The notes: generated by a model not told the origin, from the letters alone. A stretch of 64,000 nucleotides of DNA from Candidatus Kaiserbacteria bacterium (GCA_016214605.1 JACROD010000017.1:1183-65182), one strand, 5' to 3'. Numbered from the stretch's first letter, positions 1,722 to 63,790 are shown. Numbers and translations: made by a program.

Positions 1722-3773
<2,052 letters not shown>

Positions 3774-5827: not shown

Positions 5828-6529
5828 ATGAACGGAACGGATACCGTCTTTGGGTCGTTTGGCGTGATCGCGCAGTTTTTTGCACACGCGACTTTCCAAT
5901 GGCTGCCGGGTTCGATCAGTACCGCTTTTAGTCCCGGCGAGCCGGGGAGCCTCATACCGCCGATAGCGCCGGTCAGTAATCCGGTCGGTTTTGGGGAGAT
6001 GATCGGCTTCCTCAATCAGACATCTCTGGCGAGCACGCAGTATCCTTTGTATCAAAAATGGATCAGCTTCGTTGTGTTTTCGACGCTCGTCTCGCTCTGT
6101 CTCATCGCCTTTATCATCTATTGTTCGATGCGGATCAAGCAGATCAGAGCAAACGAGGAAGAAAAATTCGCCGCCTCAGCGCATACAATCACGTCGCAAG
6201 ACGTGTCGCGTACGCAGATGCGCTGGCACCGGATCACCGAACAGATCCACAGCGACGGCGAACAAAACTGGCGCCTCGCTATTCTCGAAGCGGACATCAT
6301 GCTCGGCGAACTGCTTGATGTACTCGGGTATCGCGGCGAGACGATGGGGGACAAGATGCGCAATGTCGAGCGTGCGGATTTCAATACGATAGACATGGCG
6401 TGGGAGGCACATCGCGCACGCAACAAAGTCGCGCACGAAGGCACGAGTCTCCTCTTGAACGCGCGCGAGGCACGCCGCGTTATCGCACTCTACGAACGGG
6501 TGTTTCGGGAGTTCCAATTCATCGAATAG
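5828..6529 (+). CDS. Membrane-anchored hypothetical protein with a HEPN-like C-terminal domain
   Basis: A predicted TM helix (WISFVVFSTLVSLCLIAFIIY) is followed by a soluble domain ending in AWEAHRARNKVAHEG, which carries an R-x4-H HEPN-type motif. The family assignment is tentative. Confidence 0.4.
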   Translation: MNGTDTVFGSFGVIAQFFAHATFQWLPGSISTAFSPGEPGSLIPPIAPVSNPVGFGEMIGFLNQTSLASTQYPLYQKWISFVVFSTLVSLCLIAFIIYCSMRIKQIRANEEEKFAASAHTITSQDVSRTQMRWHRITEQIHSDGEQNWRLAILEADIMLGELLDVLGYRGETMGDKMRNVERADFNTIDMAWEAHRARNKVAHEGTSLLLNAREARRVIALYERVFREFQFIE

Positions 6530-6595
6530 ATCTGTCAAACAAAGGCTGAAAGATCAGCGCTCGCTTCATGTATCGTTCATTGGTATGGCGTACTA

Positions 6596-7927
6596 TTGAG
6601 CGGCGCTATGGACAACCTTCATGATGATGGATCGCAGGTCATACCTCAGGGAGACCTTAGGCCCCGTCCACAAATAAATTCTACAGTTGTGGACGGTGCA
6701 CAAAGGGCTCTAACCACAAATAACGAGTACGTTATTTGTGGAAGACCCCTTAGGTGGGTCGGGACCGCCTTGATACTCGTGTCGATCATTATGCGTGCGT
6801 TCTCGTATCCGGTCACGACATCCGACTATACGGGTTTTTTGAGCAACTGGTTCGCTGTGCTCGCGATGCATCCCGGCCTCACCGCATTTCAAACCGTCTT
6901 TTCGGACTACACTCCGCTGTATCTCTATTTCTTGAAGGCGCTCACTTTTATTCCCGTATCGAGTCTCTATAGTATCAAGACGCTCACGCTGTGTTTCGAC
7001 ATTGTGATCACGGTCTTCGCCGTCTTGATCGTGCGCGCCGCTCAGAAAGGAGCGAGCATAGGTCAGCTGTATCTCTCCGGAGCGATCATGTTCGCTATCC
7101 CGACGCTTTTGATCAATAGTTCGCTGTGGGGGCAATCTGATGCGGTGTACGCGACAGGATGTATTGTGAGCCTGTACTACATACTCAAAGATCGCCCACT
7201 GCTTGCCGTACTCGCATTTGGATTTGCCGTCAGCGTCAAACTTCAGGCGATATTCTTTCTCCCGGTCCTGATAGGATACTTTATGCGCGCGAACGAAAAG
7301 TCGGAATGGTCGATCGTGCGGCTTGGGTATCTGCTTGTCGTCCCGGCGTTCTTCGTACTCACACTCGTGCCGGCGTGGCTCTCGGGGGGATCATTGTCGG
7401 CGCTCGCATTGACCTATGTGCGCCAGTCGGGGGAATATACTGATCTCAACATGTCTTCGCCGAGCGCGTTTGCGTTTGTACAACAGCATCTGCTCTCCAT
7501 ATCGGCACAAAACATACTCCTCTTCGTCGGGATCGGTGCGGCCGCTTTGTGCGCGCTCGGCATCGTCGCGGTAATGTCTTGGACGTCCGCTTCGACATCC
7601 CGTCGGATGATCATCATGCTCGCGTGCCTGTCCGCGCTCGCCGTGCCTTTTTTCTTGCCGCGAATGCATGAGCGGTACTTCTACCTTGCCGACATGTTCA
7701 GCGTACTCTATGCACTTTCGTATCCGCGCATGTGGTATGTACCCGCATTGATCGTATCGGCGTCACTTCTTTCATATGTGCCGTATTTGTCGGGGCAGGT
7801 CGCGCTGTTCTCAAGTCTACAGATCGATCTGAGAATCCCGGCGACGGTATTAGGATTGACGCTCGCGACCCTTTTCTATCAGCTCTTCGCATCGCAGCGA
7901 AGACAAGCAAAATTGTCGAGTGTATGA
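6596..7927 (+). CDS. GT-C fold integral membrane glycosyltransferase (DUF2029/GT87-like mannosyltransferase family)
   Basis: 443 aa with about 11 predicted TM helices. It has an acidic/aromatic first-loop motif (TSDYTGFLSNWF) typical of polyprenyl-phosphate-sugar dependent GT-C enzymes, and lies next to gtrA. Confidence 0.5.
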   Translation: MSGAMDNLHDDGSQVIPQGDLRPRPQINSTVVDGAQRALTTNNEYVICGRPLRWVGTALILVSIIMRAFSYPVTTSDYTGFLSNWFAVLAMHPGLTAFQTVFSDYTPLYLYFLKALTFIPVSSLYSIKTLTLCFDIVITVFAVLIVRAAQKGASIGQLYLSGAIMFAIPTLLINSSLWGQSDAVYATGCIVSLYYILKDRPLLAVLAFGFAVSVKLQAIFFLPVLIGYFMRANEKSEWSIVRLGYLLVVPAFFVLTLVPAWLSGGSLSALALTYVRQSGEYTDLNMSSPSAFAFVQQHLLSISAQNILLFVGIGAAALCALGIVAVMSWTSASTSRRMIIMLACLSALAVPFFLPRMHERYFYLADMFSVLYALSYPRMWYVPALIVSASLLSYVPYLSGQVALFSSLQIDLRIPATVLGLTLATLFYQLFASQRRQAKLSSV

Positions 7928-8337
7928 CCGATGAACACCGAGAGATGATTCGTCAATTCTTCACTTTTGCGGTCATTGGCGTCGCAAATACAGCCATAGA
8001 CTTCGCGATCTATGGCCTGCTGACGCGCCATGTCGGCGTGTTCGACTACCGCACGCCGGGGCGCTATGTAGCAAACGTCATTTCTTTCGGCATCGCGACC
8101 ACATTCAGTTTCTACTGCAATCGCATCTGGACATTCCGCCGTCGCTATCCTGCGCAGATGACGGAGGTGGCACGTTTCTATACGACGACCGTGAGCGGTT
8201 TGCTGTGGAACACCGCGATCTTGTTTGTTTTGAGCAGTATGGCCGGGATCAACGATCTCATCGCCAAGCTCTGTGCGACATTGTTTAGCATGATCTGGAA
8301 TTTCTTTTTCAAAAAATACTGGGTGTTTGCGAAGTAA
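7924..8337 (+). CDS. gtrA: GtrA family membrane protein (polysaccharide synthesis / flippase-associated)
   Basis: 137 aa, 4 TM helices. Motifs FFTFAVIGVANTAIDFAIYGLL and FYCNRIWTFRR match the GtrA-like family. The start overlaps the upstream stop (ATGA). Confidence 0.7.
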   Translation: MTDEHREMIRQFFTFAVIGVANTAIDFAIYGLLTRHVGVFDYRTPGRYVANVISFGIATTFSFYCNRIWTFRRRYPAQMTEVARFYTTTVSGLLWNTAILFVLSSMAGINDLIAKLCATLFSMIWNFFFKKYWVFAK

Positions 8338-8340
8338 GGA
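8312..8340 (+). repeat. Direct repeat copy 1 (3' end of gtrA including its stop codon)
   Basis: aaaaaatactgggtgtttgcgaagtaagga is repeated with 2-3 mismatches at 8704-8735. Confidence 0.8.
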
Positions 8341-8703
8341 TTATGTACACAAAGTATCTTTCCCTTCTGCTCAAACGCGCCAACGTACCCGTCGTGATCT
8401 TGGATGAATTCGCTCGCAAACTTCGTCTGAATCCTCAAAAATAAAAAAACCCCCGGATACGCCGGGACGTATCAAGGCCCCCCTTCTTGTTTATAAAGAC
8501 ATAATATATCCTGTTTCATTCGTGTCAATGGTTTGGCGTGTTAGTAACGGGATTTCAGGGTATCATCTGCGAGAGCATAGACGAACCTTCGATAGGCAAC
8601 AAGATTTTTAGATGAGTACTTTGTGTGGATGTATAATTATTACCACATGGAAACTTACCAACCAAAAAACCAAGAATATTCTTTCATAAGAAAATCATAT
8701 CGC

Positions 8704-8735
8704 GAAAGATACTGGGTGTTTGCGAAGTAGGGATT
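8704..8735 (+). repeat. Direct repeat copy 2 (duplicate of the gtrA 3' end)
   Basis: gaaagatactgggtgtttgcgaagtagggatt. It flanks a roughly 360-bp low-GC non-coding segment and abuts the HEPN/MNT pair. Confidence 0.8.
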
Positions 8736-9063
8736 ACACCACGATACCGTGCGCGCGGATCTCTTCTATAACGGGAGAGTTGCTTTGTTCCAGGTCCTCA
8801 GGCGAAAGCGGGTACGGTTCGATGCGGATATCCGCAAAGCGCGTCTTTTTCCAAAGAGTCTGCATCTCTTCCACATCGTCATGGCCGAACTGCGGCGACA
8901 CGACGGCAAGATCAATATCACTGCGAGGATTTGCCAGTCCTTTTGCGTATGAACCAAACAGAATCATCTTCTGCACGGGAATGCCGGAGGACTCCACGAC
9001 GCTTCGAAAACGAGCGGCGCTTTGCAGGACGTCTTGATCTATTGTTATTGTGTTTTGAGCCAT
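8734..9063 (-). CDS. Minimal nucleotidyltransferase (MNT) antitoxin, Pol-beta superfamily
   Basis: 109 aa. Motif LFGSYAKGLANPRSDIDLAV (GS...DxD) matches the polymerase-beta type nucleotidyltransferase fold. It overlaps the upstream HEPN gene by 19 nt. Confidence 0.75.
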   Translation of the reverse strand: MAQNTITIDQDVLQSAARFRSVVESSGIPVQKMILFGSYAKGLANPRSDIDLAVVSPQFGHDDVEEMQTLWKKTRFADIRIEPYPLSPEDLEQSNSPVIEEIRAHGIVV

Positions 9064-28939: not shown

Positions 28940-29087
28940 ATACCCTCAGAAGATACCACAATCTTTCATATTTCTCCACTAGCGTCTTTTATTGGAAGCC
29001 GAGAATAACCCCGCAGCTTGCTGCGGGGTTGAGAGGCTAATAGATTTGAAGCGGCGGCGGCCGCTACACCTTCCAAAAAAACAGCCT

Positions 29088-29150
29088 GGTGTCGCCCGCG
29101 CAATACCTCGCAGCTTGCTGCGAGGATGCGACGGGCGACCTGTTTTATTG
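29088..29150. terminator. Bidirectional rho-independent terminator (long GC hairpin with T-runs on both sides)
   Basis: aaaaaaacagcctggtgtcgcccgcgcaatacctcgcagcttgctgcgaggatgcgacgggcgacctgttttattgg. It serves the minus-strand gene ending at 29145. Confidence 0.55.
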
Positions 29151-49204: not shown

Positions 49205-49430
49205 TAGTCGCGGGATAGCGAGAGTTGGTATTTTTCGGCTTTTGCCGGAAACGGGAGTCGTGCGATAAGTCCGTCATCCGCCTTGTGCGGTGGATCGTCT
49301 GAAAGGATGAAGGTGCGGTAAAAAGCGACAACCGGCTCACGGGTGTACCAAGAGCCCATTCGGGGAGGTGAACGAAAGGCGAAGCGGGCGACGAAATCCC
49401 GCCTATCTTCAAGTAACCGGTTATCCCGAC
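49205..49430 (+). ncRNA. rnpB: Candidate strongly reduced RNase P RNA (rnpB-like) or other structured ncRNA
   Basis: Order-preserving matches to bacterial RNase P conserved regions. CR-I-like GATAAGTCCGTCATCC (cf. GGAAAGUCCGGGCUCC). P11/12-like GGATGAAGGTGCGGTAAAAAGCGACAACC (cf. GGGUGAAANGGUGCGGUAAGAGCGCACC). CAAGAGCCCATTCGGGG (cf. CAAGGCCAAAUAGGGG). AGGTGAACGAAAGGC (cf. AGAUGAAUGACUGUC). CR-V-like AACCGGTTATC (cf. AACCCGGCUUAUC). The P1 ends pair (GTCGCGGGATA / TATCCCGAC). The region is about 225 nt, far shorter than the usual 330-400 nt, and the P5-P9 region is nearly absent. Confidence 0.45.
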
Positions 49431-49458
49431 AAAAAACTCCCCGCTCGGGGAGTTTTTT
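49431..49458. terminator. Rho-independent terminator (bidirectional A-run/hairpin/T-run)
   Basis: aaaaaactcccc-gctc-ggggagtttttt, immediately after the candidate ncRNA. Confidence 0.7.
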
Positions 49459-49611
49459 GTCGTTGGACCACCAACCTAGGATTGCACCTGCTTCATATGG
49501 TCGTCTATTGACACCGATATAATGTGTATGGTATACTGAAACCAGCTGATGGATCAAGGGATTCCCTCGCGATTCCAGGACAGCTCATTTACAAACTACA
49601 GGAGACTGACC

Positions 49612-50319
49612 ATGCCGAAAGGTATGCTCGGGAATAGCGAAGTGCTCCGCCGCATCATGAGCGGACCGTTCGCCGACCTCGCCGTTAAACTCAATAGCGA
49701 AGACTCGGATGAGTGGGAGGCAGCCCTCGGAACTTTCTTGCGCAAGGAGCCCACGTGGGTGGGCGGCGCAGTTGCCAATGTCGAAAAGGTGAAACCCCCG
49801 ACCCTCGTCCTCATCCAGACGGCGACTCTCGGCAAGATCGAGGGCAAGGAGACCCGCAGTTGCTTCGCCGGCGCCATCTGGGGCTATCGGGACAGTGACA
49901 TAGACCGCTGGTTTCCCGCGCGACAGATCGCGCAAACGGCCGGTTCGGTCGGAGTCTATCAGCTTCAGAATCCGAAAGGCACCGCCTTCCGGGAAATGGC
50001 GCTGGCGGCTCTGAAAGCCTCACCCGATACCTCCAACGACCAACTCGCCAAGATGCTGAAGGAGCGCGGACTCACGTTCACGATCCAAGCCATCGAACGA
50101 CTGGTCGAAAGGCAGGAAAGCGGCGAGGACGTCGGTTTGCGTACCGATGGTTACGCGAACCTTGCGTTCGCTGAAGACGCGAACGGGAGCGTCTCGGTTC
50201 TCCGTGTCGGCCGCAGCGTCGACGGGTGGGGCGCCTACGTCTACCGGTTCGGCGACGGCGGCAGGTGGCGTGCCGAGTACCGTCTGCTTCTCCGCAACTC
50301 GGTCACTGCGACGCTCTGA
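49612..50319 (+). CDS. DGR target protein (variable protein) with the C-terminal variable repeat
   Basis: 235 aa. RBS AGGAG before the ATG at 49612. The last roughly 36 codons coincide with the VR, and the TR-encoded version is rich in AAC codons. There is no signal peptide. The N-terminal domain has unknown fold. Confidence 0.7.
   Translation: MPKGMLGNSEVLRRIMSGPFADLAVKLNSEDSDEWEAALGTFLRKEPTWVGGAVANVEKVKPPTLVLIQTATLGKIEGKETRSCFAGAIWGYRDSDIDRWFPARQIAQTAGSVGVYQLQNPKGTAFREMALAALKASPDTSNDQLAKMLKERGLTFTIQAIERLVERQESGEDVGLRTDGYANLAFAEDANGSVSVLRVGRSVDGWGAYVYRFGDGGRWRAEYRLLLRNSVTATL
50189..50295 (+). repeat. DGR variable repeat (VR), at the 3' end of the target gene
   Basis: 107 bp aligned without gaps to the TR at 50578-50684. 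All 17 mismatches fall at positions that are A in the TR (AAT->CGT, AAC->GGC, ACG->GCG, A->T and so on). The 3' 24 bp gccgagtaccgtctgcttctccgc is identical (IMH-like). Confidence 0.85.
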
Positions 50320-50577
50320 CACTTGGACCCTTGCATTGGTCCCGTACCCCGCACTTCTGGAAACGGAAGTCGCGGGGTATATTTATGCATGAACACGCTG
50401 GCATCTCCGGTCTGGCTTTTGTTTTGGACTTGAGGTGGCGAGGTTCGCACTTCTTCAAAAAAAGAAGAGAGTTGGTGCGCTGTGCTCGCGGGCTTGCGGC
50501 CCCACATCAGATACAGCCCGGAGAGTATTCTATGGGCAGTGGCCTTCGCGGGCGTCATGGATGGCACGGCGCACGAA

Positions 50578-50684
50578 GCGTCTCGGTTCTCAATGTCAAC
50601 CGCAACGACGACAGGTGGAACGCCAACGTCAACCGGTTCGACGACGGCAACAGGTGGAATGCCGAGTACCGTCTGCTTCTCCGC
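50578..50684 (+). repeat. DGR template repeat (TR), non-coding, between the target gene and avd/RT
   Basis: A-rich template with five AAC and one AAT codon-equivalents that are substituted in the VR. No ORF covers it in frame with a plausible start. Confidence 0.85.
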
Positions 50685-50708
50685 CACTCACTCCTTTCTC
50701 CCCTAGCC

Positions 50709-51050
50709 CTATGCTCGGGGAGTTTTCGTTTCCAAATACTCCTTCCAACCGACGAGCATTTTGCTCGCCTCTACGAGCGGAGCCGAGAGATGTGCATATT
50801 GTTTGTCTGTGACCATGTCGATTTCCCAGCCGACAAGCAAAAAGAACTTTACCAAATCAAGGCGAACCACGGCGGCTTCAATTGCCGTTACTTTTTGTTG
50901 CCCCGATAGATAGCTGGCGCGGAAGGCCCATTCGAGCGTGGCAAGAAACAACTCATCTATCTTCTCGCCGAGCGTGCGTCGTTGTGTTTTAGCGATGTGC
51001 GGCAGGAGCCCTTGCCAGAGGCCGTAGGAATCTTTCAATACCAACACCAC
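50709..51050 (-). CDS. avd: Avd-like accessory variability determinant (four-helix-bundle protein / 23S rRNA IVS protein family)
   Basis: 113 aa. LKDSYGLWQG (cf. FKDLxVWQKA), then helical segments ending ... ASKMLVGWKEYLE (cf. KMLNGLIKSL) typical of the bAvd family. It is divergent from the RT. Confidence 0.6.
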   Translation of the reverse strand: MVLVLKDSYGLWQGLLPHIAKTQRRTLGEKIDELFLATLEWAFRASYLSGQQKVTAIEAAVVRLDLVKFFLLVGWEIDMVTDKQYAHLSAPLVEASKMLVGWKEYLETKTPRA

Positions 51051-51102
51051 GGGGACGAATTTTGGTTGCTGAATCGTGCGGGGGGGGGGTACGCTTTGAA
51101 GA

Positions 51103-52158
51103 ATGAGCGGAATCCGGTTTATCCATACCTATGAGGATATCATTTCTGTAGAAAATTTGCTCGCGGCATGGCGGGAATTTTTGAGAGGCAAACGCAAGAA
51201 GGATGACGTGCGCAAGTTTCAATACCATCTCTCCGACAACATCCTCGCGCTCCATCGCGACCTTAAGGACAAAACATACCGCCATGGCGCATACGAAGCC
51301 TTCAAGATCAATGACCCCAAGCCGCGCGATATCCACAAGGCGACGGTGCGCGACCGCCTGCTCCATCACGCGATCTACCGACACCTCTATCCATTTTTCG
51401 ACCACACCTTCATCGCGGATTCGTATTCATGCAGAAGAGGGAAGGGTACACACAAGGCGATGGATCGTTTCAGGTCATTCGCATACCAAGTATCCAAGAA
51501 TCACACGCGCACGGTATGGGTCTTGAAATGCGATATCAAGAAGTTTTTCGCATCCATCGACCAAGCCACACTGTTTGCTATCGTCGCGCGATACATCCCC
51601 GACAAGGACATCAGCCGACTCATTGGCGAGATCATCGGGAGTTTCCAGACCCACACAACTATGCCTATAGGACGATCTGTGTGTATGGAAAAGAGAAAAG
51701 GATTACCGCTCGGTAATCTCACTTCGCAACTGCTCGTGAACATCTATATGAATGAGTTCGACCAGTTCGTGAAGCACAAACTCAAAGCAAGACACTATGT
51801 GCGTTATGCCGACGATTTCGTGGTCATGAGTACGGATCGAGTATGGCTTGAAGGACTGATCCCGCTTATCGCGCGATTCCTCGACGAGCGCCTTGCGCTT
51901 TCGCTCCATCCAAACAAGGTCTCAATCGCAACACTTGCATCCGGTGTCGATTTCTTGGGATGGGTGCATTTCTCCGATCATCGGGTACTACGAACGACGA
52001 CAAAGCGTCGAATGTTGCGGCGCACCGCAGACCTTGAAAAAGACGACCCCACCGTACGGTCTTATCTTGGGATGCTGAGCCATGGTAATGGGGAGAAATT
52101 ACGGGACATGGTAACGAAAACAGTTTTTGCTTTACGCGAACCGAGCAAGCTAAAGTGA
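51103..52158 (+). CDS. Diversity-generating retroelement reverse transcriptase
   Basis: 351 aa. RT motifs 1-7 with YADD (RYADDFVVM). DGR hallmark motif 4 GLPLGNLTSQLLVNIYMNEFD (I/LGxxxSQ in place of the QGxxxSP of other RTs). N-terminal ENLLAAWREFLRGKRKK. No maturase/X or endonuclease domain. Confidence 0.85.
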   Translation: MSGIRFIHTYEDIISVENLLAAWREFLRGKRKKDDVRKFQYHLSDNILALHRDLKDKTYRHGAYEAFKINDPKPRDIHKATVRDRLLHHAIYRHLYPFFDHTFIADSYSCRRGKGTHKAMDRFRSFAYQVSKNHTRTVWVLKCDIKKFFASIDQATLFAIVARYIPDKDISRLIGEIIGSFQTHTTMPIGRSVCMEKRKGLPLGNLTSQLLVNIYMNEFDQFVKHKLKARHYVRYADDFVVMSTDRVWLEGLIPLIARFLDERLALSLHPNKVSIATLASGVDFLGWVHFSDHRVLRTTTKRRMLRRTADLEKDDPTVRSYLGMLSHGNGEKLRDMVTKTVFALREPSKLK

Positions 52159-52266
52159 TAGAAAGCCACCTCTCACGAGAGGGTTGTGTATAGGAAATGT
52201 GGAACAATATGCAACCCATAAACAGATCAAGGACAAGAATGAAAAGGTAGGGTATAATCGTGCGAT

Positions 52267-52383
52267 ATGGCAAAAAGACCGAATCAGGATATTAAAAACA
52301 AGACCTCACGTTCACACAAGACGAAAAAGCGTCTTGCGGCGAAGGTTGCAATGAAAGCTGCACGTAAACCGAAACAAAAATAA
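52267..52383 (+). CDS. Very small basic protein (38 aa), possibly ribosome-associated; speculative
   Basis: MAKRPNQDIKNKTSRSHKTKKRLAAKVAMKAARKPKQK. TATAAT lies 8 nt upstream of the ATG, suggesting a leaderless or short-leader mRNA. It is followed by a strong terminator. Confidence 0.3.
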   Translation: MAKRPNQDIKNKTSRSHKTKKRLAAKVAMKAARKPKQK

Positions 52384-52402
52384 GATTTGGGTGTTTTTAT
52401 AA

Positions 52403-52443
52403 AGCAGGCCGACGCGCCTCAGGCGCGTCGGCCTGCTTTTTTG
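52403..52443 (+). terminator. Rho-independent terminator
   Basis: agcaggccgacgcgcc-tcag-gcgcgtcggcctgc followed by tttttt. A 16-bp perfect stem. Confidence 0.8.
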
Positions 52444-52489
52444 GCCTGCTTTTTGGATCGCAAAGACCTTTCCGTGTTACAATATCTAA

Positions 52490-53464
52490 ATGAAAATATA
52501 CATAACCCGCATTATTCCCAATAAAGGTATCGCGCTGCTCAAAGAGCGCGGCTTCGAAGTAGTCATGAATCCCGAGGACCGCGTCCTTTCTCGAGAGGAG
52601 CTCATTGTCGCGCTCAAAGCCGACCGCTACAATGCGGTGCTCTGCCTCCTCACCGACAAGATCGACGCCGAGATCATGGATGCGGCGGGCCCGCAGTGCA
52701 AGATATTTGCCAACTATGCGGTCGGTTTCGACAATATAGATCTCGCGGCGGCGAAAGCGCACAATGTATTGGTAAGCAACACGCCGGGCGTGCTCTCCAA
52801 TGCCGTCGCCGAACACACCTTTGCGCTCATGTTTGCGGTCGCACGCCGTGTGGCCGAATCCGATCGATTCATCCGCAAGGGTTCATTTGAGGGTTGGGCG
52901 CCGATGATGTTGCTCGGCAACGAGATTATGGGCAAGACGCTTGGTATCATAGGACTCGGTGCGATCGGATCGCGCGTGGGACATAGTGCCGCCAAGGGAT
53001 TTGATATGAAAGTGATCTATCACGATATGAAGCGCTCCGAGATGTTTGAGCAGGATTGCGGCGGATCATTCCGCGAGAATGTCGATGATATTTTCAAAGA
53101 AGCTGATTTTGTCTCGATGCATGTGCCGCTCTTGCCGACGACCCAGCACATGGTCAACGACGCGCGCTTGCGCATGATGAAAAAGACCGCCTACCTCATC
53201 AATACCGCCCGCGGTCCGGTGGTAGACGAAGCCGCACTCGTGAAGGTCTTGCAGGAAGGCACAATCGCCGGTGCCGGTCTCGATGTCTTTGAGCACGAGC
53301 CGCAATTCGCCCCGGGACTCACCGATCTCGCCAATGTCGTACTCACGCCGCATACCGCATCTGCGACCATAGAGACACGCGACGCCATGAGCGAACTTGC
53401 CGCAAAAAATATCGTCGAGGCGCTTGAGGGGCGCACTCCGCCGACCTTGGTCGTGATGAAATAA
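52490..53464 (+). CDS. D-isomer specific 2-hydroxyacid dehydrogenase (glyoxylate/hydroxypyruvate reductase or PGDH-like)
   Basis: NAD-binding GIIGLGAIGSRVG. Catalytic R/E/H arrangement (NTARGPVVDE ... LDVFEHEP ... TPHTAS). Confidence 0.8.
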   Translation: MKIYITRIIPNKGIALLKERGFEVVMNPEDRVLSREELIVALKADRYNAVLCLLTDKIDAEIMDAAGPQCKIFANYAVGFDNIDLAAAKAHNVLVSNTPGVLSNAVAEHTFALMFAVARRVAESDRFIRKGSFEGWAPMMLLGNEIMGKTLGIIGLGAIGSRVGHSAAKGFDMKVIYHDMKRSEMFEQDCGGSFRENVDDIFKEADFVSMHVPLLPTTQHMVNDARLRMMKKTAYLINTARGPVVDEAALVKVLQEGTIAGAGLDVFEHEPQFAPGLTDLANVVLTPHTASATIETRDAMSELAAKNIVEALEGRTPPTLVVMK

Positions 53465-58845: not shown

Positions 58846-61587
58846 ATGGATTCAGATGGGCGGGAACACAAAAAAGAACAGGCGTGGTATACACATTCCA
58901 TCGAGAGTATTTTTGAAGAATTAAAGTCAGGCGAACATGGTCTCTCTGCTATAGAGGCTGCGCGTCGCCTCGCACAGGCCGGTCCCAATACATTGCCGGA
59001 TGCCAAGGTTGACGGACATTTCATCGTATTTCTGCGGCAATTCCAGAGTCCGCTCATCTATGTGCTGCTCGCGGCGGCGCTCGGGGTCTTTCTCACTTCT
59101 GATCCCGCTGATACCGGTATCATCCTCTTTGTCCTTATTTTCAATGCGATCATCGGTACCGTCCAGGAAGGCCGCGCCCAAAACACGCTCCTCGCGCTCA
59201 AAAAATTCACCGAGACGCAGGCGACCGTAGTGCGCGACGGCCGTGAGCTGATCATCCCGGATCGCGAGGTCGTCGTCGGCGACGTGATCATATTGCAAGA
59301 AGGTGCCAAGATCCCGGCTGATGCACGCATCATCATGGTGCACAATCTCAAGATCGACGAAGCGTCGCTCACCGGCGAATCCGTCCCGGTCGGGAAGATG
59401 TCCGAGGTGCTTCATGGTACTGAGAGGAGTGTCGCCGAGCAGAAGAACATGGTTTTCAAGGGCACGCACGTCACGACAGGTGCCGGTCGTGCGATCGTGA
59501 TCGCGACCGGGCTCTCCACCTCGATCGGCCGCGTGGCCGCAGAGATAAGCTTGGTAGATACCGAGATCCCGCTCAAGGCCAACATCAGACATTTAGCTTA
59601 TGGGATCATCAAGGTCGTCGGCGTGATGGTGGTCGTCCTGTTCGTCATCGGGATCATGCTCGGCCACCCACCGCTCACTATGTTTGCGACGGTCGTCTCG
59701 CTCGCAATCTCGGTGATCCCCGAAGGGCTCCCCATCGTACTCACGCTGGTACTTGCGACCGGCGTGTGGCGCATGTCCAAACGCAACGTCCTCGTCAAAA
59801 AACTCCAGGCGATTGAAGCGCTCGGACAAGCGCAGGTGATCGCAGTCGACAAGACCGGCACTATTACGAAAAATGAGCAGGTCATCCAAGAAGTCTGGAC
59901 AGGAGGCGTATCCTACGATATCGGCGGGGTCGGCTACGAGGCCACCGGCGAGGTGAGTATCAAAGAGGAGGCTATCGTCCCGGCCGATCACCCGGATCTG
60001 CTTTTTGCCGGCAAGATCGCAGCGCTCTGCGCGAGTGCGCAGGTCATGTATTCCGAAGAAGAAAAGATTTGGCGTGTCTCGGGTGATCCCACCGAGGCGG
60101 CAATGTTCGTCTTTGGGCAGAAGGTTGGATTCAATAAAGGTGACGTCGAGCAGGAGTCGCCGATGATCTCTGAGATCCCCTTTGATTACAAACTCAAATA
60201 TCATGCGACGATCCATTCGGTCGAGGGCCCGCCTTCGCCTCAGGCTACGGCGAGACAAAGCAAAAATATACTGACCGTCGTCGGGGCGCCCGAACAGGTC
60301 TTGGCGCTCTGCAAACATATCCGTCACGGAGATGGCGCATCGGCGCTTACCGCGGAGAAAAAGGAAGAGCTCGAAAGCGCGCTTACTCATATGTCGTCCA
60401 AGGGTCTGCGCGTGCTCGCGTATGCGACCACTGTGGGCGGGCCCGATGTGATCGCGCCCGAAGAGATTCACAGTCTCACCTTCGGAGGATTTTTTGGCAT
60501 GAAAGACGGCCTTCGTGCAGAGGTCGAGGATGCAATGGCTCGTGCGCATGCGGCGGGCATTCGCGTCGTCATGATCACCGGCGATCATGTGCTCACGGCG
60601 CGCGCCGTCGCCACGGAGGCAGGGATATTCCAGGAGGGCGACGAAGTATGCACCGGCGAACAGATCGACCAGATGACGAGTACGCAATTGGCCGCGAAGC
60701 TCGGTACGGTATCAGTCTTCGCACGCGTGACGCCCGAACACAAACTCCACATCATCCAAGCATACCGGGCGCGCGGCGAGATCATCGCCATGACAGGCGA
60801 CGGGGTCAACGATGCGCCGTCTCTCGTCGCGGCGGATCTCGGAGTCTCCATGGGCAAGATCGGTACCGAGGTCGCCAAAGAAGCGTCCGACATTGTACTC
60901 TTGGATGACAATTTTGGCAGTATTATTTCCGCCGTCGAAGAGGGGAGAAGTATCTACAAGACGATCAAAAAGGTCGTGCTTTATCTCTTTTCTACCAGCT
61001 TGGGCGAAGTACTCACAATCGCGGTCGCACTCGTCATCGGCTATCCTTTGCCGCTACTCGCCGCGCAGATCATCTGGCTCAATTTTGTCACCGATGGATT
61101 CTTGGATGTATCGCTCGCGATGGAGCCCAAGGACAAAGACCTCTTGTCGCGCACCTATGCTCATCCCAAGGGTCATATCGTCGATCGCCTCATGATGCAG
61201 CGGATCGTGGTGATGGCGATCCCGATGATGATCGGTACGCTCTTCCTCTTCTCCTTCTATATCGCCGACGATATGACCAAGGCGTGGACGATCTCGCTCA
61301 CCACACTCGCGATGTTTCAGTGGTTCAATGCATGGAACTGTCGTTCTGAGACCGAATCGCTATTCAGGACGAATCCTTTTTCCAACAAATTCTTGATCAT
61401 GGCGACGGTGACCGTGATATTCCTGCAAGTGCTTGCCGTCTATACGCCATTCTTGCAAAATCTCCTGCACACCATGCCGCTCACGCTCGGTGAATGGCTG
61501 ATGATCGTCCCCGTCGCCGCGACGGTGATCGTGGTAGAAGAGATTCGCAAGTGGTGGTATCGAGGGCGAATAGCGCGAGGTGCATGA
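58846..61587 (+). CDS. Cation-transporting P-type ATPase, type IIA-like (Ca2+/Mg2+ family)
   Basis: 913 aa. Cation_ATPase_N region, TGES (LTGES), phosphorylation site DKTGTIT, PEGL, and GDGVNDAPSL hinge. 10 TM. Confidence 0.85.
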   Translation: MDSDGREHKKEQAWYTHSIESIFEELKSGEHGLSAIEAARRLAQAGPNTLPDAKVDGHFIVFLRQFQSPLIYVLLAAALGVFLTSDPADTGIILFVLIFNAIIGTVQEGRAQNTLLALKKFTETQATVVRDGRELIIPDREVVVGDVIILQEGAKIPADARIIMVHNLKIDEASLTGESVPVGKMSEVLHGTERSVAEQKNMVFKGTHVTTGAGRAIVIATGLSTSIGRVAAEISLVDTEIPLKANIRHLAYGIIKVVGVMVVVLFVIGIMLGHPPLTMFATVVSLAISVIPEGLPIVLTLVLATGVWRMSKRNVLVKKLQAIEALGQAQVIAVDKTGTITKNEQVIQEVWTGGVSYDIGGVGYEATGEVSIKEEAIVPADHPDLLFAGKIAALCASAQVMYSEEEKIWRVSGDPTEAAMFVFGQKVGFNKGDVEQESPMISEIPFDYKLKYHATIHSVEGPPSPQATARQSKNILTVVGAPEQVLALCKHIRHGDGASALTAEKKEELESALTHMSSKGLRVLAYATTVGGPDVIAPEEIHSLTFGGFFGMKDGLRAEVEDAMARAHAAGIRVVMITGDHVLTARAVATEAGIFQEGDEVCTGEQIDQMTSTQLAAKLGTVSVFARVTPEHKLHIIQAYRARGEIIAMTGDGVNDAPSLVAADLGVSMGKIGTEVAKEASDIVLLDDNFGSIISAVEEGRSIYKTIKKVVLYLFSTSLGEVLTIAVALVIGYPLPLLAAQIIWLNFVTDGFLDVSLAMEPKDKDLLSRTYAHPKGHIVDRLMMQRIVVMAIPMMIGTLFLFSFYIADDMTKAWTISLTTLAMFQWFNAWNCRSETESLFRTNPFSNKFLIMATVTVIFLQVLAVYTPFLQNLLHTMPLTLGEWLMIVPVAATVIVVEEIRKWWYRGRIARGA

Positions 61588-61843: not shown

Positions 61844-63790
61844 ATGCACGAACACGGCCACACACATCATCAACATGATGTCGGGTCATCGGTGAGTCGT
61901 GATGCGGGGGTAGATAAGCATGCCGGGCACCACACGGCGGATTTCTTGAAGAAGTTTTGGGTGGTGCTCACGCTCACGATCCCGATCATTGCATACTCCG
62001 ATCTCCCCATGCTTTTCTTCGGATGGATGGCACCGGCGTTTTCCGGCTCCGCGTATCTCTCGCTTGTGCTCGGCAGCGTCATCTTCTTTTATGGCGGACT
62101 TGTCTTCTTGCGCGGAGCGGTGAGCGAGCTCAGGGCGCGCTTGCCCGGCATGATGACTTTGATCGCGCTCGCCATCACGACTGCGTATCTCTACAGTGTC
62201 GTCACGGTCTTCGTCGGCGGTATGTCGCTCTTTTGGGAGCTCTCGACCTTGATCGCGGTGATGCTCCTCGGACATTGGATCGAAATGCGGGCAGTCATGG
62301 GTGCTTCAGGAGCACTCAATGCGTTGGCCAAGCTACTGCCCGACACCGCCGACGTCGTGCGCGAGGGCGCGACGCAGACGATTTCCGTATCAGCATTGAG
62401 ATCGGGAGATATCGTGATCGTGCGACCCGGCGGCAAGATCCCTGCCGATGGAGAAGTGATCGAAGGCCGTTCGGAGATCGACGAATCCATGCTCACCGGC
62501 GAGTCCAAGCCGGTACCCAAAGATATCGGTGCGGTGGTCGTCGCCGGATCAATCAATGGCGATGGGACGCTCCGCATTCGCGTGTCCCATATCGGGGAGA
62601 GCACGTTTCTCGCCGGTATCATGCGATTGGTCGCCGAGGCCCAAAGCTCCAAATCGCGCTTGCAGATGCTCTCCGATCGCGCCGCTTTTTGGCTCACAAT
62701 GCTTGCTGTGGGGGCGGGAGCGATCACTTTTGTCGCATGGATCTTTGCCCAGGCGGGTGTCGGATTTGCTACTGAGCGTTTGGTCGCCGTCTTGGTGATC
62801 GCGTGTCCTCATGCGCTTGGGCTCGCGATCCCGCTCGTAGCCGCGATCTCGACCACGATGGCCGCGCGCAATGGCCTCCTCATCAAGAAGCGCATCGCAC
62901 TCGAGGCGGCGCGCAAGGTGACCGTCGTCGTGTTCGACAAGACGGGGACCCTGACCCAAGGGCGATTCGCGGTCACCGATTCGAGCTCAGATGATGCGCT
63001 CGCGCTCGCCGCATCCGTCGAGGCGGGTTCAGAGCATTCGATAGGCAAGGCGATCCTGGAAGAAGCTCGTAGGCGCAAGCTCGACATACGTGAGAGTCAG
63101 GATTTTCGACGCATCCCCGGGGTGGGAGCGGAGGCGCTCGTCGACGGTGCGCGGGTTTTCGTCGGTCATCGAGGTAATGAGTCGATCCGTGTCGAAGTTG
63201 CAGGCAAAGAGATCGGTACGATCAAGGTAGCGGATACGATACGACCGGAAGCGCGCGATGCTGTACGATCGCTCAAGGCGATGGGCCTCAAGATCGTGAT
63301 GATCACCGGTGATGCCGAGGACGCCGCGCGGGTGGTAGCGCAAGAGCTCGGGATCGATCAGTATTTTGCGCGTGTCCTGCCGGGCCAAAAGGCCGACAAA
63401 GTACTTTTGTTGCAAAAAGAAGGAGCGACGGTCGCCATGGTGGGCGACGGGGTCAATGATGCGCCGGCGCTCGCGCAAGCGGATCTTGGTATCGCGATCG
63501 GCGCGGGCACCAATGTCGCGATCGAGTCGGCGGGGATCATCCTCGTCCGTAGCGACCCGCGCGATATCGCCAAGGTGATCAGACTCTCCCGTCTCACCTA
63601 TACCAAGATGATCCAAAATCTCTTTTGGGCGAGCGCGTACAATGTAATCGCGCTCCCCATCGCCGCAGGGGCGTTGTTCTCCTGGGGGATCATCCTCCAG
63701 CCGGCAGTAGCTGCTATATTCATGTCCGCCTCGACCGTGATCGTCGCGGTCAATGCGTCTCTATTGGGCCGAAAGAGTCTGAGTGAGTAG
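61844..63790 (+). CDS. Heavy-metal P1B-type ATPase, CopB-like (CPH motif, His-rich N-terminus)
   Basis: N-terminal MHEHGHTHHQHD His-rich stretch. TM CPH motif (IACPHALGLAIPL), DKTGTLT, GDGVNDAPAL. Confidence 0.85.
   Translation: MHEHGHTHHQHDVGSSVSRDAGVDKHAGHHTADFLKKFWVVLTLTIPIIAYSDLPMLFFGWMAPAFSGSAYLSLVLGSVIFFYGGLVFLRGAVSELRARLPGMMTLIALAITTAYLYSVVTVFVGGMSLFWELSTLIAVMLLGHWIEMRAVMGASGALNALAKLLPDTADVVREGATQTISVSALRSGDIVIVRPGGKIPADGEVIEGRSEIDESMLTGESKPVPKDIGAVVVAGSINGDGTLRIRVSHIGESTFLAGIMRLVAEAQSSKSRLQMLSDRAAFWLTMLAVGAGAITFVAWIFAQAGVGFATERLVAVLVIACPHALGLAIPLVAAISTTMAARNGLLIKKRIALEAARKVTVVVFDKTGTLTQGRFAVTDSSSDDALALAASVEAGSEHSIGKAILEEARRRKLDIRESQDFRRIPGVGAEALVDGARVFVGHRGNESIRVEVAGKEIGTIKVADTIRPEARDAVRSLKAMGLKIVMITGDAEDAARVVAQELGIDQYFARVLPGQKADKVLLLQKEGATVAMVGDGVNDAPALAQADLGIAIGAGTNVAIESAGIILVRSDPRDIAKVIRLSRLTYTKMIQNLFWASAYNVIALPIAAGALFSWGIILQPAVAAIFMSASTVIVAVNASLLGRKSLSE

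What the first reader, a model, noticed from the sequence alone, without database searches (positions are those of the whole stretch)
49612..52158. Complete diversity-generating retroelement with textbook adenine-specific TR/VR divergence
Four components are present within 2.5 kb. (1) An RT (51103-52158) with the YADD box and the DGR-specific motif 4 LGNLTSQ. (2) An Avd-like four-helix-bundle gene (50709-51050, minus strand). (3) A 107-bp non-coding template repeat (50578-50684). (4) A 107-bp variable repeat (50189-50295) forming the last ~36 codons of a 235-aa target gene. Gap-free alignment of TR and VR gives 17 mismatches, and every one is at an adenine of the TR (for example TR aat->VR cgt, aac->ggc, acg->gcg, aac->tac). 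There are zero mismatches at C, G or T positions. The TR contains the AAC/AAT codon pattern typical of DGR templates. The 3' 24 bp are identical, as expected for IMH/IMH*. I read this directly from the sequence. It is the strongest candidate for a hypervariable-protein system in this window. The target protein has no recognisable signal peptide or known C-type-lectin sequence signature, so its ligand-binding fold and function are open.
Basis: seen in the sequence. Interest (0 to 1): 0.9.

Follow-up and report, generated by a model that had tools for sequence, protein, structure and literature searches.

The report
Patescibacterial DGR with upstream template-RNA leader
This is a genuine, complete diversity-generating retroelement of a type already known from Patescibacteria, so the element is ordinary, but its template repeat is preceded by a conserved structured RNA that does not seem to have been described.

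Summary
TR (50578-50684) and VR (50189-50295) align without gaps. There are 16 mismatches, not 17, and all are at TR adenines (p about 2e-13). All TR adenines sit at codon positions 1 or 2.

The order target-TR-(avd)-RT is the published architecture B3. The source is a Candidatus Kaiserbacteria MAG, which fits the published Patescibacteria DGR clade. This is a new member of a known kind.

Three extras came from about 30-40 related loci:
- A roughly 185-nt covariation-supported structured leader lies directly 5' of TR, and is absent from Rfam. With a hairpin and U-run just 3' of TR, it suggests a discrete RNA of about 340 nt whose scaffold is upstream, not downstream as in BPP-1.
- A hairpin with a GAAA loop lies downstream of VR.
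- A conserved poly-G run of variable length (G6-G12) lies in the avd/RT promoter region.

Near-identical relatives differ only in VR, which points to natural diversification.

The parts
49508..49537 (+). Sigma-70-like promoter of the target gene (TTGACA, 18 nt, TATACT, with TG before the -10)
   Evidence: 11 of 12 consensus matches. This is a consensus match only. It argues for the 49612 ATG rather than the 49549 ATG as the start.
49612..50319 (+). Target (variable protein) gene, 235 aa. The N-terminal ~60 aa are poorly conserved. Residues ~60-230 are predicted as a divergent C-type-lectin/FGE-like domain.
50189..50295 (+). Variable repeat (VR), codons 193-228 of the target
   Evidence: It has 16 differences from the TR, all at TR adenines.
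50345..50379 (+). 15-bp hairpin with a GAAA tetraloop (50360-50363), about 45-50 nt downstream of VR. Candidate DGR target-recognition hairpin or cruciform, and possibly the terminator of the target gene.
   Evidence: DNA fold. The stem covaries and GNRA-type loops (GAAA, GCAA) recur in relatives. Guo et al. 2011 (PMC3240598) describe GC-rich stems with 4-nt GRNA loops downstream of VRs.
50378..50383 (+). -10-like box TATATT, directly after the hairpin. Inferred promoter of the TR RNA, with a start near 50390.
   Evidence: T43 and A44 are invariant, T45 and A46 are at least 90% conserved, and position 6 is T in most of the 31 aligned loci (C in a minority). Function is inferred.
50390..50574 (+). 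Conserved structured leader of the TR RNA. P1 50396-50440. A-run 50457-50471. Long-range duplex S3, 50475-50486 with 50563-50574, ending 3 nt before TR. S4 50489-50503. S5 50516-50537.
   Evidence: nhmmer finds it in about 45 loci. Alignment A2. RNAalifold predicts 36 pairs, 24 of them with compensatory changes. Pair counts: 96% paired against 38-49% when partners are slid, and 159 doubly changed cells against 17-34. Window coordinates. No Rfam match. The core is kept in loci with other target families.
50578..50684 (+). Template repeat (TR), non-coding, with 24 adenines, 8 of them pairs in AAY codons in the VR reading frame
50698..50732 (+). Hairpin just 3' of TR (arms 50699-50703 and 50717-50721) followed by the U-run GTTTTCGTTTC. 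Inferred intrinsic terminator of the TR RNA and/or an Avd-binding stem-loop. It overlaps the last codons of avd on the other strand.
   Evidence: The stem covaries (5-11 doubly changed sequences per pair). The U-run is nearly invariant. Synonymous-codon identity in avd rises from about 0.4 to 0.6-1.0 only over its last ~7 codons.
50709..51050 (-). avd-like accessory gene, 113 aa, GTG start
   Evidence: NCBIfam DivGenRetAVD E 1.8e-8 and Pfam bAvd E 5e-6, both below the curated cut-offs. All 9 homologues match bAvd. The single-sequence model has four helices. Top Foldseek hits are 2rld and BPP-1 Avd 4dwl and 8ub7_B, with probability 0.84-1.0 but E 0.05-0.5.
51066..51095 (+). avd/RT divergent promoter region: -35-like TTGCTG (51066-51071), an 18-nt spacer ending in a G10 run (51080-51089), and -10-like TACGCT (51090-51095), 7 nt before the RT ATG
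   Evidence: The G run is present in all 22 distinct related loci examined, with lengths from G6 to G12. The distance from the -10 end to the ATG is 7 nt in 15 loci. Function is inferred.
51103..52158 (+). DGR reverse transcriptase, 351 aa, with YADD and LGNLTSQ
   Evidence: Pfam RVT_1. Best PDB relative is BPP-1 bRT 8ub7 at E 1.3e-44 over residues 7-323. The group II model scores 149 bits against a cut-off of 300.

Best explanation
This is a chromosomal diversity-generating retroelement of a Candidatus Kaiserbacteria (Patescibacteria) genome, with the gene order target-VR, hairpin, leader-TR, (avd, opposite strand), RT.

Most likely mechanism:
1. A discrete non-coding RNA of about 340 nt is transcribed from a -10-like box at 50378. 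It carries a 185-nt structured leader, the 107-nt TR and a terminal hairpin with a U-run ending near 50732.
2. The RT is made from its own promoter, probably as a leaderless mRNA, and acts together with Avd.
3. RT and Avd bind this RNA and reverse-transcribe the TR, misincorporating opposite its 24 adenines.
4. The cDNA replaces VR in the target gene. This recodes up to 17 codons, about 4e14 possible proteins, on the C-terminal strands of a C-type-lectin-like domain. The identical 3' block (IMH-like) and the downstream GAAA hairpin guide integration.

Shown here:
- the anatomy of the cassette;
- adenine-only divergence between TR and VR;
- the affinity of the RT with DGR RTs;
- conservation of the cassette across related loci;
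- covariation in the RNA helices;
- VR-restricted differences between near-identical relatives.

Inferred: the transcription boundaries, the roles of the leader, hairpins and poly-G run, present-day activity in this genome, and what the target protein binds. My guess is that the leader is the RT/Avd-binding scaffold that BPP-1 carries 3' of TR as the spacer (Sp). The 12-bp duplex S3, which abuts the 5' end of TR, would then play the part of the BPP-1 reverse-transcription stop duplex.
For: - TR/VR: 16 of 16 mismatches are at TR adenines, p 1.7e-13. The pattern occurs at no other site in the window.
- Codon usage: TR adenines fall only at codon positions 1 and 2 (11 and 14, none at position 3), with 8 AAY codons. 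Among the 17 mutable codons only the two AGG codons (205, 218) could mutate to a stop, TGA.
- RT: bRT 8ub7 at E 1.3e-44 against at best 2e-21 for retron-type and group II RTs. The YADD and LGNLTSQ motifs are present.
- Avd: HMM matches, and the fold's top hits include BPP-1 Avd.
- Conserved cassette: the same gene order with adenine-only or nearly adenine-only mismatches occurs in L001, L006, L008, L009, L012, L016, L018, L189, L190 and L191.
- Natural diversification in relatives: one 90% cluster (P0004, P0069, P0070) differs at 12 alignment columns, all within the last 50 residues and none elsewhere. Another cluster shows 30 against 5.
- Leader RNA: searches give 24 of 36 pairs with compensatory changes, and no shuffle or slid control approaches the observed values.
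- S3 is fully compensated in L189 and L191, which carry a different or only distantly related target. The leader therefore goes with the RT/avd clade and not with the target family.
- 3' boundary: only 24 nt separate TR from the avd stop codon. Extra synonymous constraint in avd is limited to the last ~7 codons, under the hairpin and U-run.
- BPP-1 comparison: Handa et al. [quoted passage not shown]
- Published context: architecture B3, TR-(avd)-RT, in Wu et al. (PMC5758913). A Patescibacteria-restricted DGR clade whose targets lack recognisable domains in Roux et al. (PMC8144416).
Against: - No reads were available, so present-day diversification in this genome is not shown.
- The window's own target protein has a single database member.
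- The Avd HMM scores are below the curated cut-offs.
- Single-sequence folding of the proposed RNA is no better than shuffles, z -0.5. The structure therefore rests on covariation.
- No priming site could be identified. The leader-TR pairs predicted by RNAalifold never covary.
- The order of elements in the leader (stem-loop, A-run, duplex strand) is not a simple permutation of BPP-1 Sp.
- The promoter and terminator calls are consensus matches only.
Confidence: 0.9

Rival explanations
1. The cassette is an intact-looking but currently silent or fossil DGR. The TR/VR differences record past activity, and the VR is now fixed.
For: The window's target protein has only one member and one contig in the database. 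Decayed relatives exist. L003-L005 keep the target but have no TR, avd or RT within 5-6 kb. L010 keeps the target and leader but has lost TR, avd and RT. P0016 has an identical VR in two independent samples.
Against: All ORFs are intact and the catalytic YADD is present. The 25-nt 3' block and the 14-nt 5' block are still identical between TR and VR. There are no non-adenine differences inside the repeat. Close relatives show VR-only variation.
Confidence: 0.2
2. The conserved 5' leader is real RNA structure but is not the RT/Avd scaffold. It would instead be a regulatory or stability element, such as a riboswitch-like or processing 5' region of the TR transcript. The priming and RT-binding elements would then lie elsewhere, for example in the short segment 3' of TR or supplied in trans.
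For: No primer strand or leader-TR pairing with covariation was found. The order of elements differs from BPP-1 Sp. A covarying stem-loop does exist just 3' of TR, where Handa et al. place the Avd-binding stem-loop.
Against: The leader travels with the RT/avd clade across unrelated targets. It ends in a 12-bp duplex abutting the TR 5' end, like the BPP-1 stop duplex. No other constrained RNA is available 3' of TR. About 140 nt of Sp is indispensable in BPP-1.
Confidence: 0.3
3. The RT belongs to a group II intron or a retron, as the public annotation suggests ('group II intron reverse transcriptase domain-containing protein'), and the repeat is unrelated to it.
For: The NCBI name of P0071. The best NCBIfam hit is the group II RT/maturase model, but at 149 bits against a cut-off of 300.
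Against: BPP-1 bRT is the best solved relative by more than 20 orders of magnitude in E-value. No group II intron or other RNA family was detected by Rfam in the window or the locus. The RT is only 351 aa, with no maturase or endonuclease extension. An adenine-specific TR/VR pair and an Avd gene lie next to it.
Confidence: 0.01
4. The repeat is an ordinary segmental duplication that has diverged by chance.
For: None beyond the existence of a direct repeat.
Against: All 16 differences fall on the 24 adenines of one copy (p 1.7e-13). They affect only codon positions 1 and 2. The same bias recurs independently in at least nine other loci.
Confidence: 0.005

Closest known systems
Bordetella phage BPP-1 DGR (mtd-avd-TR-brt), the prototype
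   Same: - The RT is the closest solved relative (8ub7, E 1.3e-44).
- There is an Avd-like four-helix protein.
- Divergence between TR and VR is adenine-only, with AAY codons.
- The VR encodes the C-terminus of a C-type-lectin-type protein.
- A GC-rich hairpin with a GAAA loop lies downstream of VR.
- A duplex involves the segment just 5' of TR, and a stem-loop lies just 3' of TR.
   Different: - The element is chromosomal in a Patescibacterium, not in a phage.
- avd is on the opposite strand and lies between TR and RT.
- There is no 140-nt spacer RNA 3' of TR: only 24 nt to the avd stop, and no hidden constraint in antisense avd.
- A 185-nt structured leader lies 5' of TR instead.
- The hairpin lies about 45-50 nt from VR, against 4-34 nt in the published phage set.
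- The target has no sequence similarity to Mtd.
CPR/Patescibacteria DGRs: 'CPR set' and architecture B3, TR-(avd)-RT, of Wu et al. 2018 (PMC5758913); DGR clade 2 of Roux et al. 2021 (PMC8144416); Paul et al. 2017
   Same: - The gene order with reversed avd is the same.
- The host is a Patescibacterium and the DGR is cellular rather than viral.
- The target has no transmembrane or recognisable domain.
- The VR could not be assigned to a fold by sequence. Wu et al. list such cases as 'UVR' classes.
[quoted passage not shown]
   Different: - I could not check whether this exact VR class is one of their UVR1-6, because the supplements are not held and Paul et al. is not in the library.
- No RT phylogeny was run against their clade references.
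- The papers I could read do not mention the 5' leader RNA or the poly-G tract.
Treponema denticola TvpA (2y3c) and FGE-type C-type-lectin-fold variable proteins
RT-10 motif and BPP-1 Sp RNA (Weinberg et al. 2017, PMC5737381; Handa et al. 10.1101/2023.10.23.563531)
   Same: Both are structured RNAs attached to a DGR template repeat and presumed to serve the RT.
   Different: RT-10/Sp lies between TR and the RT gene, 3' of TR. The element here lies 5' of TR. It matches no Rfam family even at E up to 10.

Membership tests
Diversity-generating retroelement (DGR) | RT of the DGR lineage (closest to bRT; motif 4 [LIV]GxxxSQ; YxDD) | tested here: met
   8ub7 bRT at E 1.3e-44 over residues 7-323, against at best 2e-21 for retron-type and group II RTs. 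LGNLTSQ and YADD are in the sequence. No formal phylogeny was run.
Diversity-generating retroelement (DGR) | TR/VR pair whose differences are at TR adenines | tested here: met
   16 of 16 mismatches are at TR adenines, p 1.7e-13.
Diversity-generating retroelement (DGR) | VR inside (usually at the 3' end of) a protein-coding target; TR non-coding near the RT; TR adenines at codon positions 1 and 2 (AAY) | tested here: met
   The VR is codons 193-228 of 235. TR adenines number 11, 14 and 0 at codon positions 1, 2 and 3. There are 8 AAY codons. The TR lies 418 nt upstream of the RT.
Diversity-generating retroelement (DGR) | IMH/IMH*-like 3' block and a GC-rich inverted repeat with a 4-nt loop downstream of VR only | tested here: met
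   A 25-nt identical 3' block is followed by divergence from 50296. A 15-bp hairpin with a GAAA loop lies at 50345-50379, after VR and not after TR, and is conserved in relatives. Its function was not tested. The distance from VR is larger than the published 4-34 nt.
Diversity-generating retroelement (DGR) | Avd accessory protein | tested here: met
   NCBIfam DivGenRetAVD at E 1.8e-8 (34.6 bits, cut-off 80) and Pfam bAvd at 27 bits (cut-off 40). 9 of 9 homologues match bAvd. The four-helix model's top hits are 2rld and BPP-1 Avd 4dwl and 8ub7_B. Met at sub-threshold scores.
Diversity-generating retroelement (DGR) | Ongoing VR diversification in a population | not testable with these tools
   No reads were available for the window. 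In relatives, members of 90% clusters differ only or mainly in the VR.
C-type-lectin-fold DGR variable proteins | VR residues displayed on a CLec/FGE-like domain | tested here: inconclusive
Architecture B3, TR-(avd)-RT (Wu et al. 2018) | Order TR, avd on the reverse strand, RT | tested here: met
   with the definition.
DGR clade 2 of Roux et al. 2021 (Patescibacteria-restricted) | RT falls in that clade of their RT tree | not tested
   Only the taxonomy is consistent. The source is a Candidatus Kaiserbacteria MAG, and the named homologues are from Patescibacteria.
BPP-1-type DGR RNA (avd segment-TR-Sp) | About 140 nt of structured spacer 3' of TR carrying the primer strand, stop-duplex strand and RT-binding stem-loop | tested here: not met
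   There are 24 nt between TR and the avd stop. Only a hairpin and U-run are conserved there. Synonymous constraint in antisense avd is flat except over the last ~7 codons. A structured leader lies 5' of TR instead.
Group II intron | Intron RNA domains flanking the RT ORF; maturase domain | tested here: not met
   There is no Rfam group II hit. The TIGR04416 model scores 149 bits against a cut-off of 300.
Retron | msr/msd RNA and a retron-clade RT | tested here: not met
   Retron RT models score 62 bits or less against cut-offs of 235 or more. There is no Rfam retron RNA hit.

The most novel reading that the evidence does not exclude
In this very large Patescibacteria DGR clade, the template RNA may be organised the other way round from the BPP-1 paradigm. 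The RT/Avd-binding scaffold, including the duplex that abuts the 5' end of TR, would come from a 185-nt structured leader upstream of TR, not from a spacer downstream. The RNA would be a free-standing transcript of about 340 nt ending at a terminator inside the tail of avd. In addition, RT expression may be tuned or phase-varied by a conserved poly-G run of variable length in the spacer of its promoter.
Probability: 0.4. Interest if true: 0.65.

Novelty: new member of a known kind. Interest (0 to 1): 0.45.

Why it matters
As a DGR, this adds one more instance to a clade that is already catalogued. It also shows that public annotation still mislabels the parts: the RT is called a group II intron RT and the target a hypothetical protein.

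The more useful result is comparative. More than 40 proteins form a compact target family of about 230 aa. The family gives a confident model that looks like a minimal, divergent C-type-lectin fold. This is a candidate for the 'new C-Lec variants in CPR' that Roux et al. anticipated.

The RNA result could matter more. The only mechanistic model of DGR reverse transcription rests on a spacer RNA 3' of TR. Here a covariation-supported RNA sits 5' of TR, and nothing comparable sits 3'. The RT has at least 8000 database homologues (E<=1e-20). If the leader is the RT/Avd scaffold, it shows how the ribonucleoprotein can be rebuilt with a different topology. It would also give a small, defined RNA for reconstitution and for engineering. 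The poly-G tract raises a testable idea that hypermutation itself can be switched on and off.

Tried and rejected
- Sequence searches of the target against Pfam, NCBIfam and PDB found nothing.
- Foldseek of the target model against PDB found nothing significant. The afdb50 library was unavailable.
- Searches with Avd alone and with an Avd profile against PDB sequences found nothing.
- Rfam gave no family in the locus, either at gathering thresholds or at E up to 10.
- A scan of viral contigs with a leader motif returned 120 loci. None matched the leader HMM beyond the motif itself. The pattern was too loose and A-rich, so this says nothing about viral occurrence.
- Literature gaps: Paul et al. 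2017 is not in the library, and the Wu et al. supplements are not held. I therefore could not tell whether this VR class equals one of their UVR1-6.
- The P0072 look-up was not on record.
- Leader-TR pairings proposed by RNAalifold (GUUG with CAAC inside the mutagenised part of TR, and UGGAA with UUCCA in antisense avd) never covary. The first also lies upstream of mutated sites, so I do not count them.
- I considered pairing between the leader A-run and the U-run 3' of TR. Inspection by eye showed some matching G/C and U/A changes but also exceptions (L016, L018, L033, L042, L064), so it is left open.
- I considered a BPP-1-like spacer hidden in antisense avd. I rejected it because synonymous-site conservation is flat except under the hairpin and U-run.
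- Single-sequence folding energy is not informative here (z -0.5).
- The 49549 ATG was considered as the start of the target. It is less likely because it lies only about 12 nt after the promoter's -10 box and lacks a ribosome-binding site.
Full report
**1. Observation**

I read 49300-52500 and listed the ORFs. All four components are at the stated coordinates.

TR/VR alignment:
- VR 50189-50295 and TR 50578-50684 are both on the + strand and align without gaps.
All 16 are at adenines of the non-coding copy.
- That is 16 of the TR's 24 adenines. None of its 83 other bases differs. The hypergeometric probability is 1.7e-13.
- The identical 3' block is 25 nt and the identical 5' block is 14 nt.
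- The repeat finder extends the pair to 113 nt (50188-50300 and 50577-50689).
- A pattern made from the TR with every A as N, allowing up to 3 mismatches, matches only these two sites in the 64 kb. None is expected by chance. The window therefore holds one VR.

In the target reading frame, the TR adenines fall at codon positions 1, 2 and 3 in counts of 11, 14 and 0. There are 8 AAY codons. Among the 17 mutable codons only the two AGG codons (205, 218) can mutate to a stop (TGA). Those 17 codons allow about 4e14 protein variants.

**2. The proteins**

RT (51103-52158, 351 aa):
- It matches Pfam RVT_1.
- Its best solved relative is the BPP-1 DGR RT (8ub7) at E 1.3e-44 over residues 7-323. Retron-type and group II RTs reach at best 2e-21.
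- The NCBIfam group II model scores 149 bits against a cut-off of 300, and the retron models score far below theirs.
- YADD and LGNLTSQ are present.
- Rfam finds no intron, retron or other RNA family in the locus.

Avd-like protein (minus-strand ORF 50709-51050, 113 aa):
- It matches NCBIfam DivGenRetAVD (E 1.8e-8) and Pfam bAvd (E 5e-6), both below the curated cut-offs.
- All nine homologues I aligned match bAvd.
- A single-sequence AlphaFold model gives four helices with pLDDT 73.
- Its top Foldseek hits are 2rld and BPP-1 Avd (4dwl, 8ub7_B, 8ube_D), with probability 0.84-1.0 but weak E-values.

Target (49612-50319, 235 aa):
- It has a sigma-70-like promoter at 49508-49537 and AGGAG 7 nt before the ATG.
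- It has no Pfam, NCBIfam or PDB sequence hit.
- It is 100% identical to hypothetical protein HZC00_02825 of a Candidatus Kaiserbacteria MAG.
- It has 43 homologues, nearly all of about 220-240 aa; those with a source name are from Patescibacteria.
- The alignment shows an unalignable N-terminal ~60 residues, a well-conserved core, and a C-terminal scaffold, GSVSVLxVxRxxGRWxAxVxRLGxGxRWxAxxRLLLRNS. The x positions in that scaffold are the TR-adenine codons.

Target model:
- An AlphaFold model built from this alignment has pLDDT above 94 for residues 60-230.
- Foldseek against PDB finds nothing significant.
- I read this as a divergent C-type-lectin/FGE-like fold, moderately supported.
- The neighbours are GroEL, a Bro-N protein, a phosphoribosyltransferase and a 2-hydroxyacid dehydrogenase. 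The context is chromosomal, not phage.

**3. Relatives**

- Look-ups and scans gave 68 loci carrying a relative of the target, some of them duplicates.
- The cassette target(+), TR(+), avd(-), RT(+) recurs in MAGs labelled Adlerbacteria, Paceibacterota, Zambryskibacteria, 'Saccharibacteria' and others.
- Their TR/VR pairs again differ only at TR adenines: 14 of 14, 15 of 15, 20 of 20 and 17 of 17, with one locus at 16 of 18.
- Members of 90%-identity protein clusters differ almost only in the VR. P0004, P0069 and P0070 differ at 12 columns, all within the last 50 residues and none elsewhere. Another cluster shows 30 against 5. This is indirect evidence that the family diversifies in nature.
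- Some relatives are decayed. L003-L005 keep the target but have no TR, avd or RT nearby. L010 keeps the target and leader only.
- The RT clade is much larger than the target family. There are at least 8000 homologues at E below 1e-20, and the top 120 are 65-78% identical.
- RT relatives with another target (L189, a different 217-aa protein with a 127-nt VR and 13 of 13 adenine mismatches) or a very distant one (L191) keep the same layout.

**4.

(a) Hairpin downstream of VR.
- A 15-bp hairpin with a GAAA loop lies at 50345-50379, about 45-50 nt past VR.
- In relatives the stem covaries and the loop is mostly GCAA or GAAA.
- Guo et al. (PMC3240598) showed that a GC-rich hairpin or cruciform with a 4-nt GRNA loop downstream of VR is needed for efficient retrohoming in BPP-1. 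They found such hairpins widely among phage-related DGRs, 4-34 bp from VR.

(b) A -10-like box. TATATT at 50378-50383 follows the hairpin directly and is nearly invariant.

(c) A structured leader, about 50390 to 50574.
- It is strongly conserved. nhmmer finds it in about 45 loci.
- In a 31-sequence alignment, RNAalifold predicts 36 pairs, 24 of which have compensatory changes.
- Pair counting gives 96% of cells paired, against 38-49% when partners are slid by 1-3 columns. There are 159 doubly changed cells against 17-34. No shuffle out of 500 reaches any observed measure.
- In the window the helices are P1 (50396-50440), S4 (50489-50503), S5 (50516-50537), and a 12-bp long-range duplex S3 (50475-50486 with 50563-50574) that ends 3 nt before TR.
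- An invariant A-run and AGUUGG (50457-50474) precede S3.
- L189 and L191 keep the A-run, S3 (fully compensated), S4 and S5. The leader therefore goes with the RT/avd clade and not with the target.

(d) A hairpin and U-run just 3' of TR.
- A covarying hairpin (50699-50721) is followed by a nearly invariant U-run (50722-50732). Together they overlap the last avd codons on the other strand.
- Synonymous-codon identity along avd is flat at 0.39-0.47, except over the last ~7 codons, where it is 0.6-1.0.
- No further constrained RNA is therefore hidden in antisense avd.
- The single-sequence MFE of 50390-50732 reproduces P1, S3, S5 and the terminal hairpin, but it is no more stable than shuffles (z -0.5). 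The structure rests on covariation, not on energy.

(e) A poly-G run in the avd/RT intergenic region.
- The 52-nt region holds a G10 run (51080-51089) between a -35-like TTGCTG and a -10-like TACGCT. The -10 box ends 7 nt before the RT ATG.
- A G run is present in every one of the 22 distinct related loci examined, with lengths from G6 to G12.
- The closely related loci L006 and L021 (identical over the leader and TR region) carry G11 and G9.
- Where a TTGnnn can be read, the spacer is mostly 16-19 nt. The length of the G run tends to make up for the length of the rest of the spacer.
- The distance from the -10 box to the ATG is 7 nt in 15 loci.
- This suggests a leaderless RT mRNA and a promoter spacer prone to slippage. 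I did not test either idea further.

**5. Mechanism**

The DGR reading is secure. Mutagenic retrohoming goes from the TR RNA, through an RT-Avd complex, into VR. It recodes a surface of a C-type-lectin-like protein.

What differs from the BPP-1 paradigm is the RNA. In BPP-1, the essential 140-nt spacer (Sp) lies 3' of TR. According to Handa et al. (bioRxiv 10.1101/2023.10.23.563531), it provides:
- the Avd-binding stem-loop;
- the primer strand;
- one strand of the stop duplex, whose other strand is the segment just 5' of TR;
- a stem-loop followed by A-minor adenosines;
- the thumb ring;
- the RT-binding stem-loop.

Here only a stem-loop and U-run follow TR. By contrast, the 5' leader supplies a 12-bp duplex abutting the TR 5' end, a variable stem-loop followed by invariant adenosines, and further helices.

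My best guess is that the leader is the functional counterpart of Sp, placed on the other side of TR. The TR RNA would then be a free-standing transcript of about 340 nt. I could not find the primer. The element order is also not a simple permutation of Sp. I therefore give this about 0.4-0.5.

**6. Comparison with what is known**

- The order TR-(avd)-RT is architecture B3 of Wu et al. 2018 (PMC5758913).
- Their 'CPR set' includes VR classes that could not be assigned to a fold (UVR1-6).
- Roux et al. 2021 (PMC8144416) describe a Patescibacteria-restricted cellular DGR clade. Its targets lack recognisable domains, and they predict new C-Lec variants there.
- Weinberg et al. 2017 (PMC5737381) found the RT-10 motif in the BPP-1 spacer. 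The leader here matches no Rfam family.
- In the papers I could search, I found no description of a 5' leader or of the poly-G tract. The search was limited, and Paul et al. 2017 was not available.

**7. Verdict**

The element is a new member of a known kind, and public annotation mislabels it: the RT as a group II intron RT and the target as hypothetical. By itself it is of modest interest. The conserved 5' leader RNA, the short 3' end of the TR RNA and the variable poly-G tract raise the interest, because they can be tested and they bear on how DGR ribonucleoproteins are built and controlled.

Noticed in passing
window 50390-50574 (also L001 6778-6942, L006 6767-6937, L016 5623-5805, L189 ~3311-3430, L191 ~3458-3572): A conserved structured RNA of about 185 nt lies directly 5' of the TR. 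It has five covarying helices, including a 12-bp long-range duplex that ends 3 nt before TR, and an invariant A-run followed by AGUUGG. It matches no Rfam family and is kept in loci whose targets are unrelated.
   Followed up: yes
window 51080-51089 (avd/RT intergenic 51051-51102); the same position in 21 other loci: A homopolymeric G run is conserved in position but varies in length (G6-G12). It lies between a -35-like TTGCnn and a -10-like TAnnnT, which ends 7 nt before the RT ATG. It is a candidate slippage-prone promoter spacer, and the RT mRNA may be leaderless. The closely related loci L006 and L021 (identical over the leader and TR region) carry G11 and G9.
   Followed up: partly
window 50698-50732: A covarying hairpin and a nearly invariant U-run lie on the + strand just after TR and overlap the last ~7 codons of avd on the - strand. 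Synonymous-codon identity in avd rises only there, which marks the probable 3' end of the TR RNA.
   Followed up: yes
L003-L005 (target at 6001-6699 or 72-770) and L010 (target 5001-5531, leader 5561-5772): These look like decayed cassettes. In L003-L005 the target gene and a remnant of the downstream hairpin remain, with no TR, avd or RT within the flanks. L006, which has the same upstream genes (DnaG, sigma-70, PDDEXK, DsbA), has TR and avd followed by the first 22 codons of the RT at the contig end. L010 keeps the target and leader, and the sequence then diverges.
   Followed up: partly
proteins P0047, P0061, P0062, P0020, P0048, P0052: Some database 'target proteins' end in TR-encoded sequence. 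They show N-rich VR positions, or a C-terminus that continues into the region downstream of TR. These are probably assembly collapses of VR onto TR, and they would inflate apparent VR diversity if taken at face value.
   Followed up: partly
window 49612-49790 (target residues 1-60): The N-terminal ~60 residues of the target family cannot be aligned between homologues and have low pLDDT. This variation does not depend on the DGR. There is no signal peptide or hydrophobic segment.
   Followed up: no
window 51103-52158 and 49549-50319 (public records P0071, P0001): The public annotation calls the RT a 'group II intron reverse transcriptase domain-containing protein' and the target a 'hypothetical protein' with the longer 256-aa start. 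The locus is therefore not annotated as a DGR.
   Followed up: no
window 8312-8343 / 8705-8736; 28999-29034 / 29096-29131; 59351-60855 / 62475-63502: The repeat scan found other repeats. One is a 32-nt direct repeat at 94% identity, 393 nt apart. Another is a pair of hairpin-like 36-nt repeats (78% identical, 97 nt apart) near tRNA-Met. There are also two diverged paralogous coding stretches about 2.6-3.1 kb apart.
   Followed up: no
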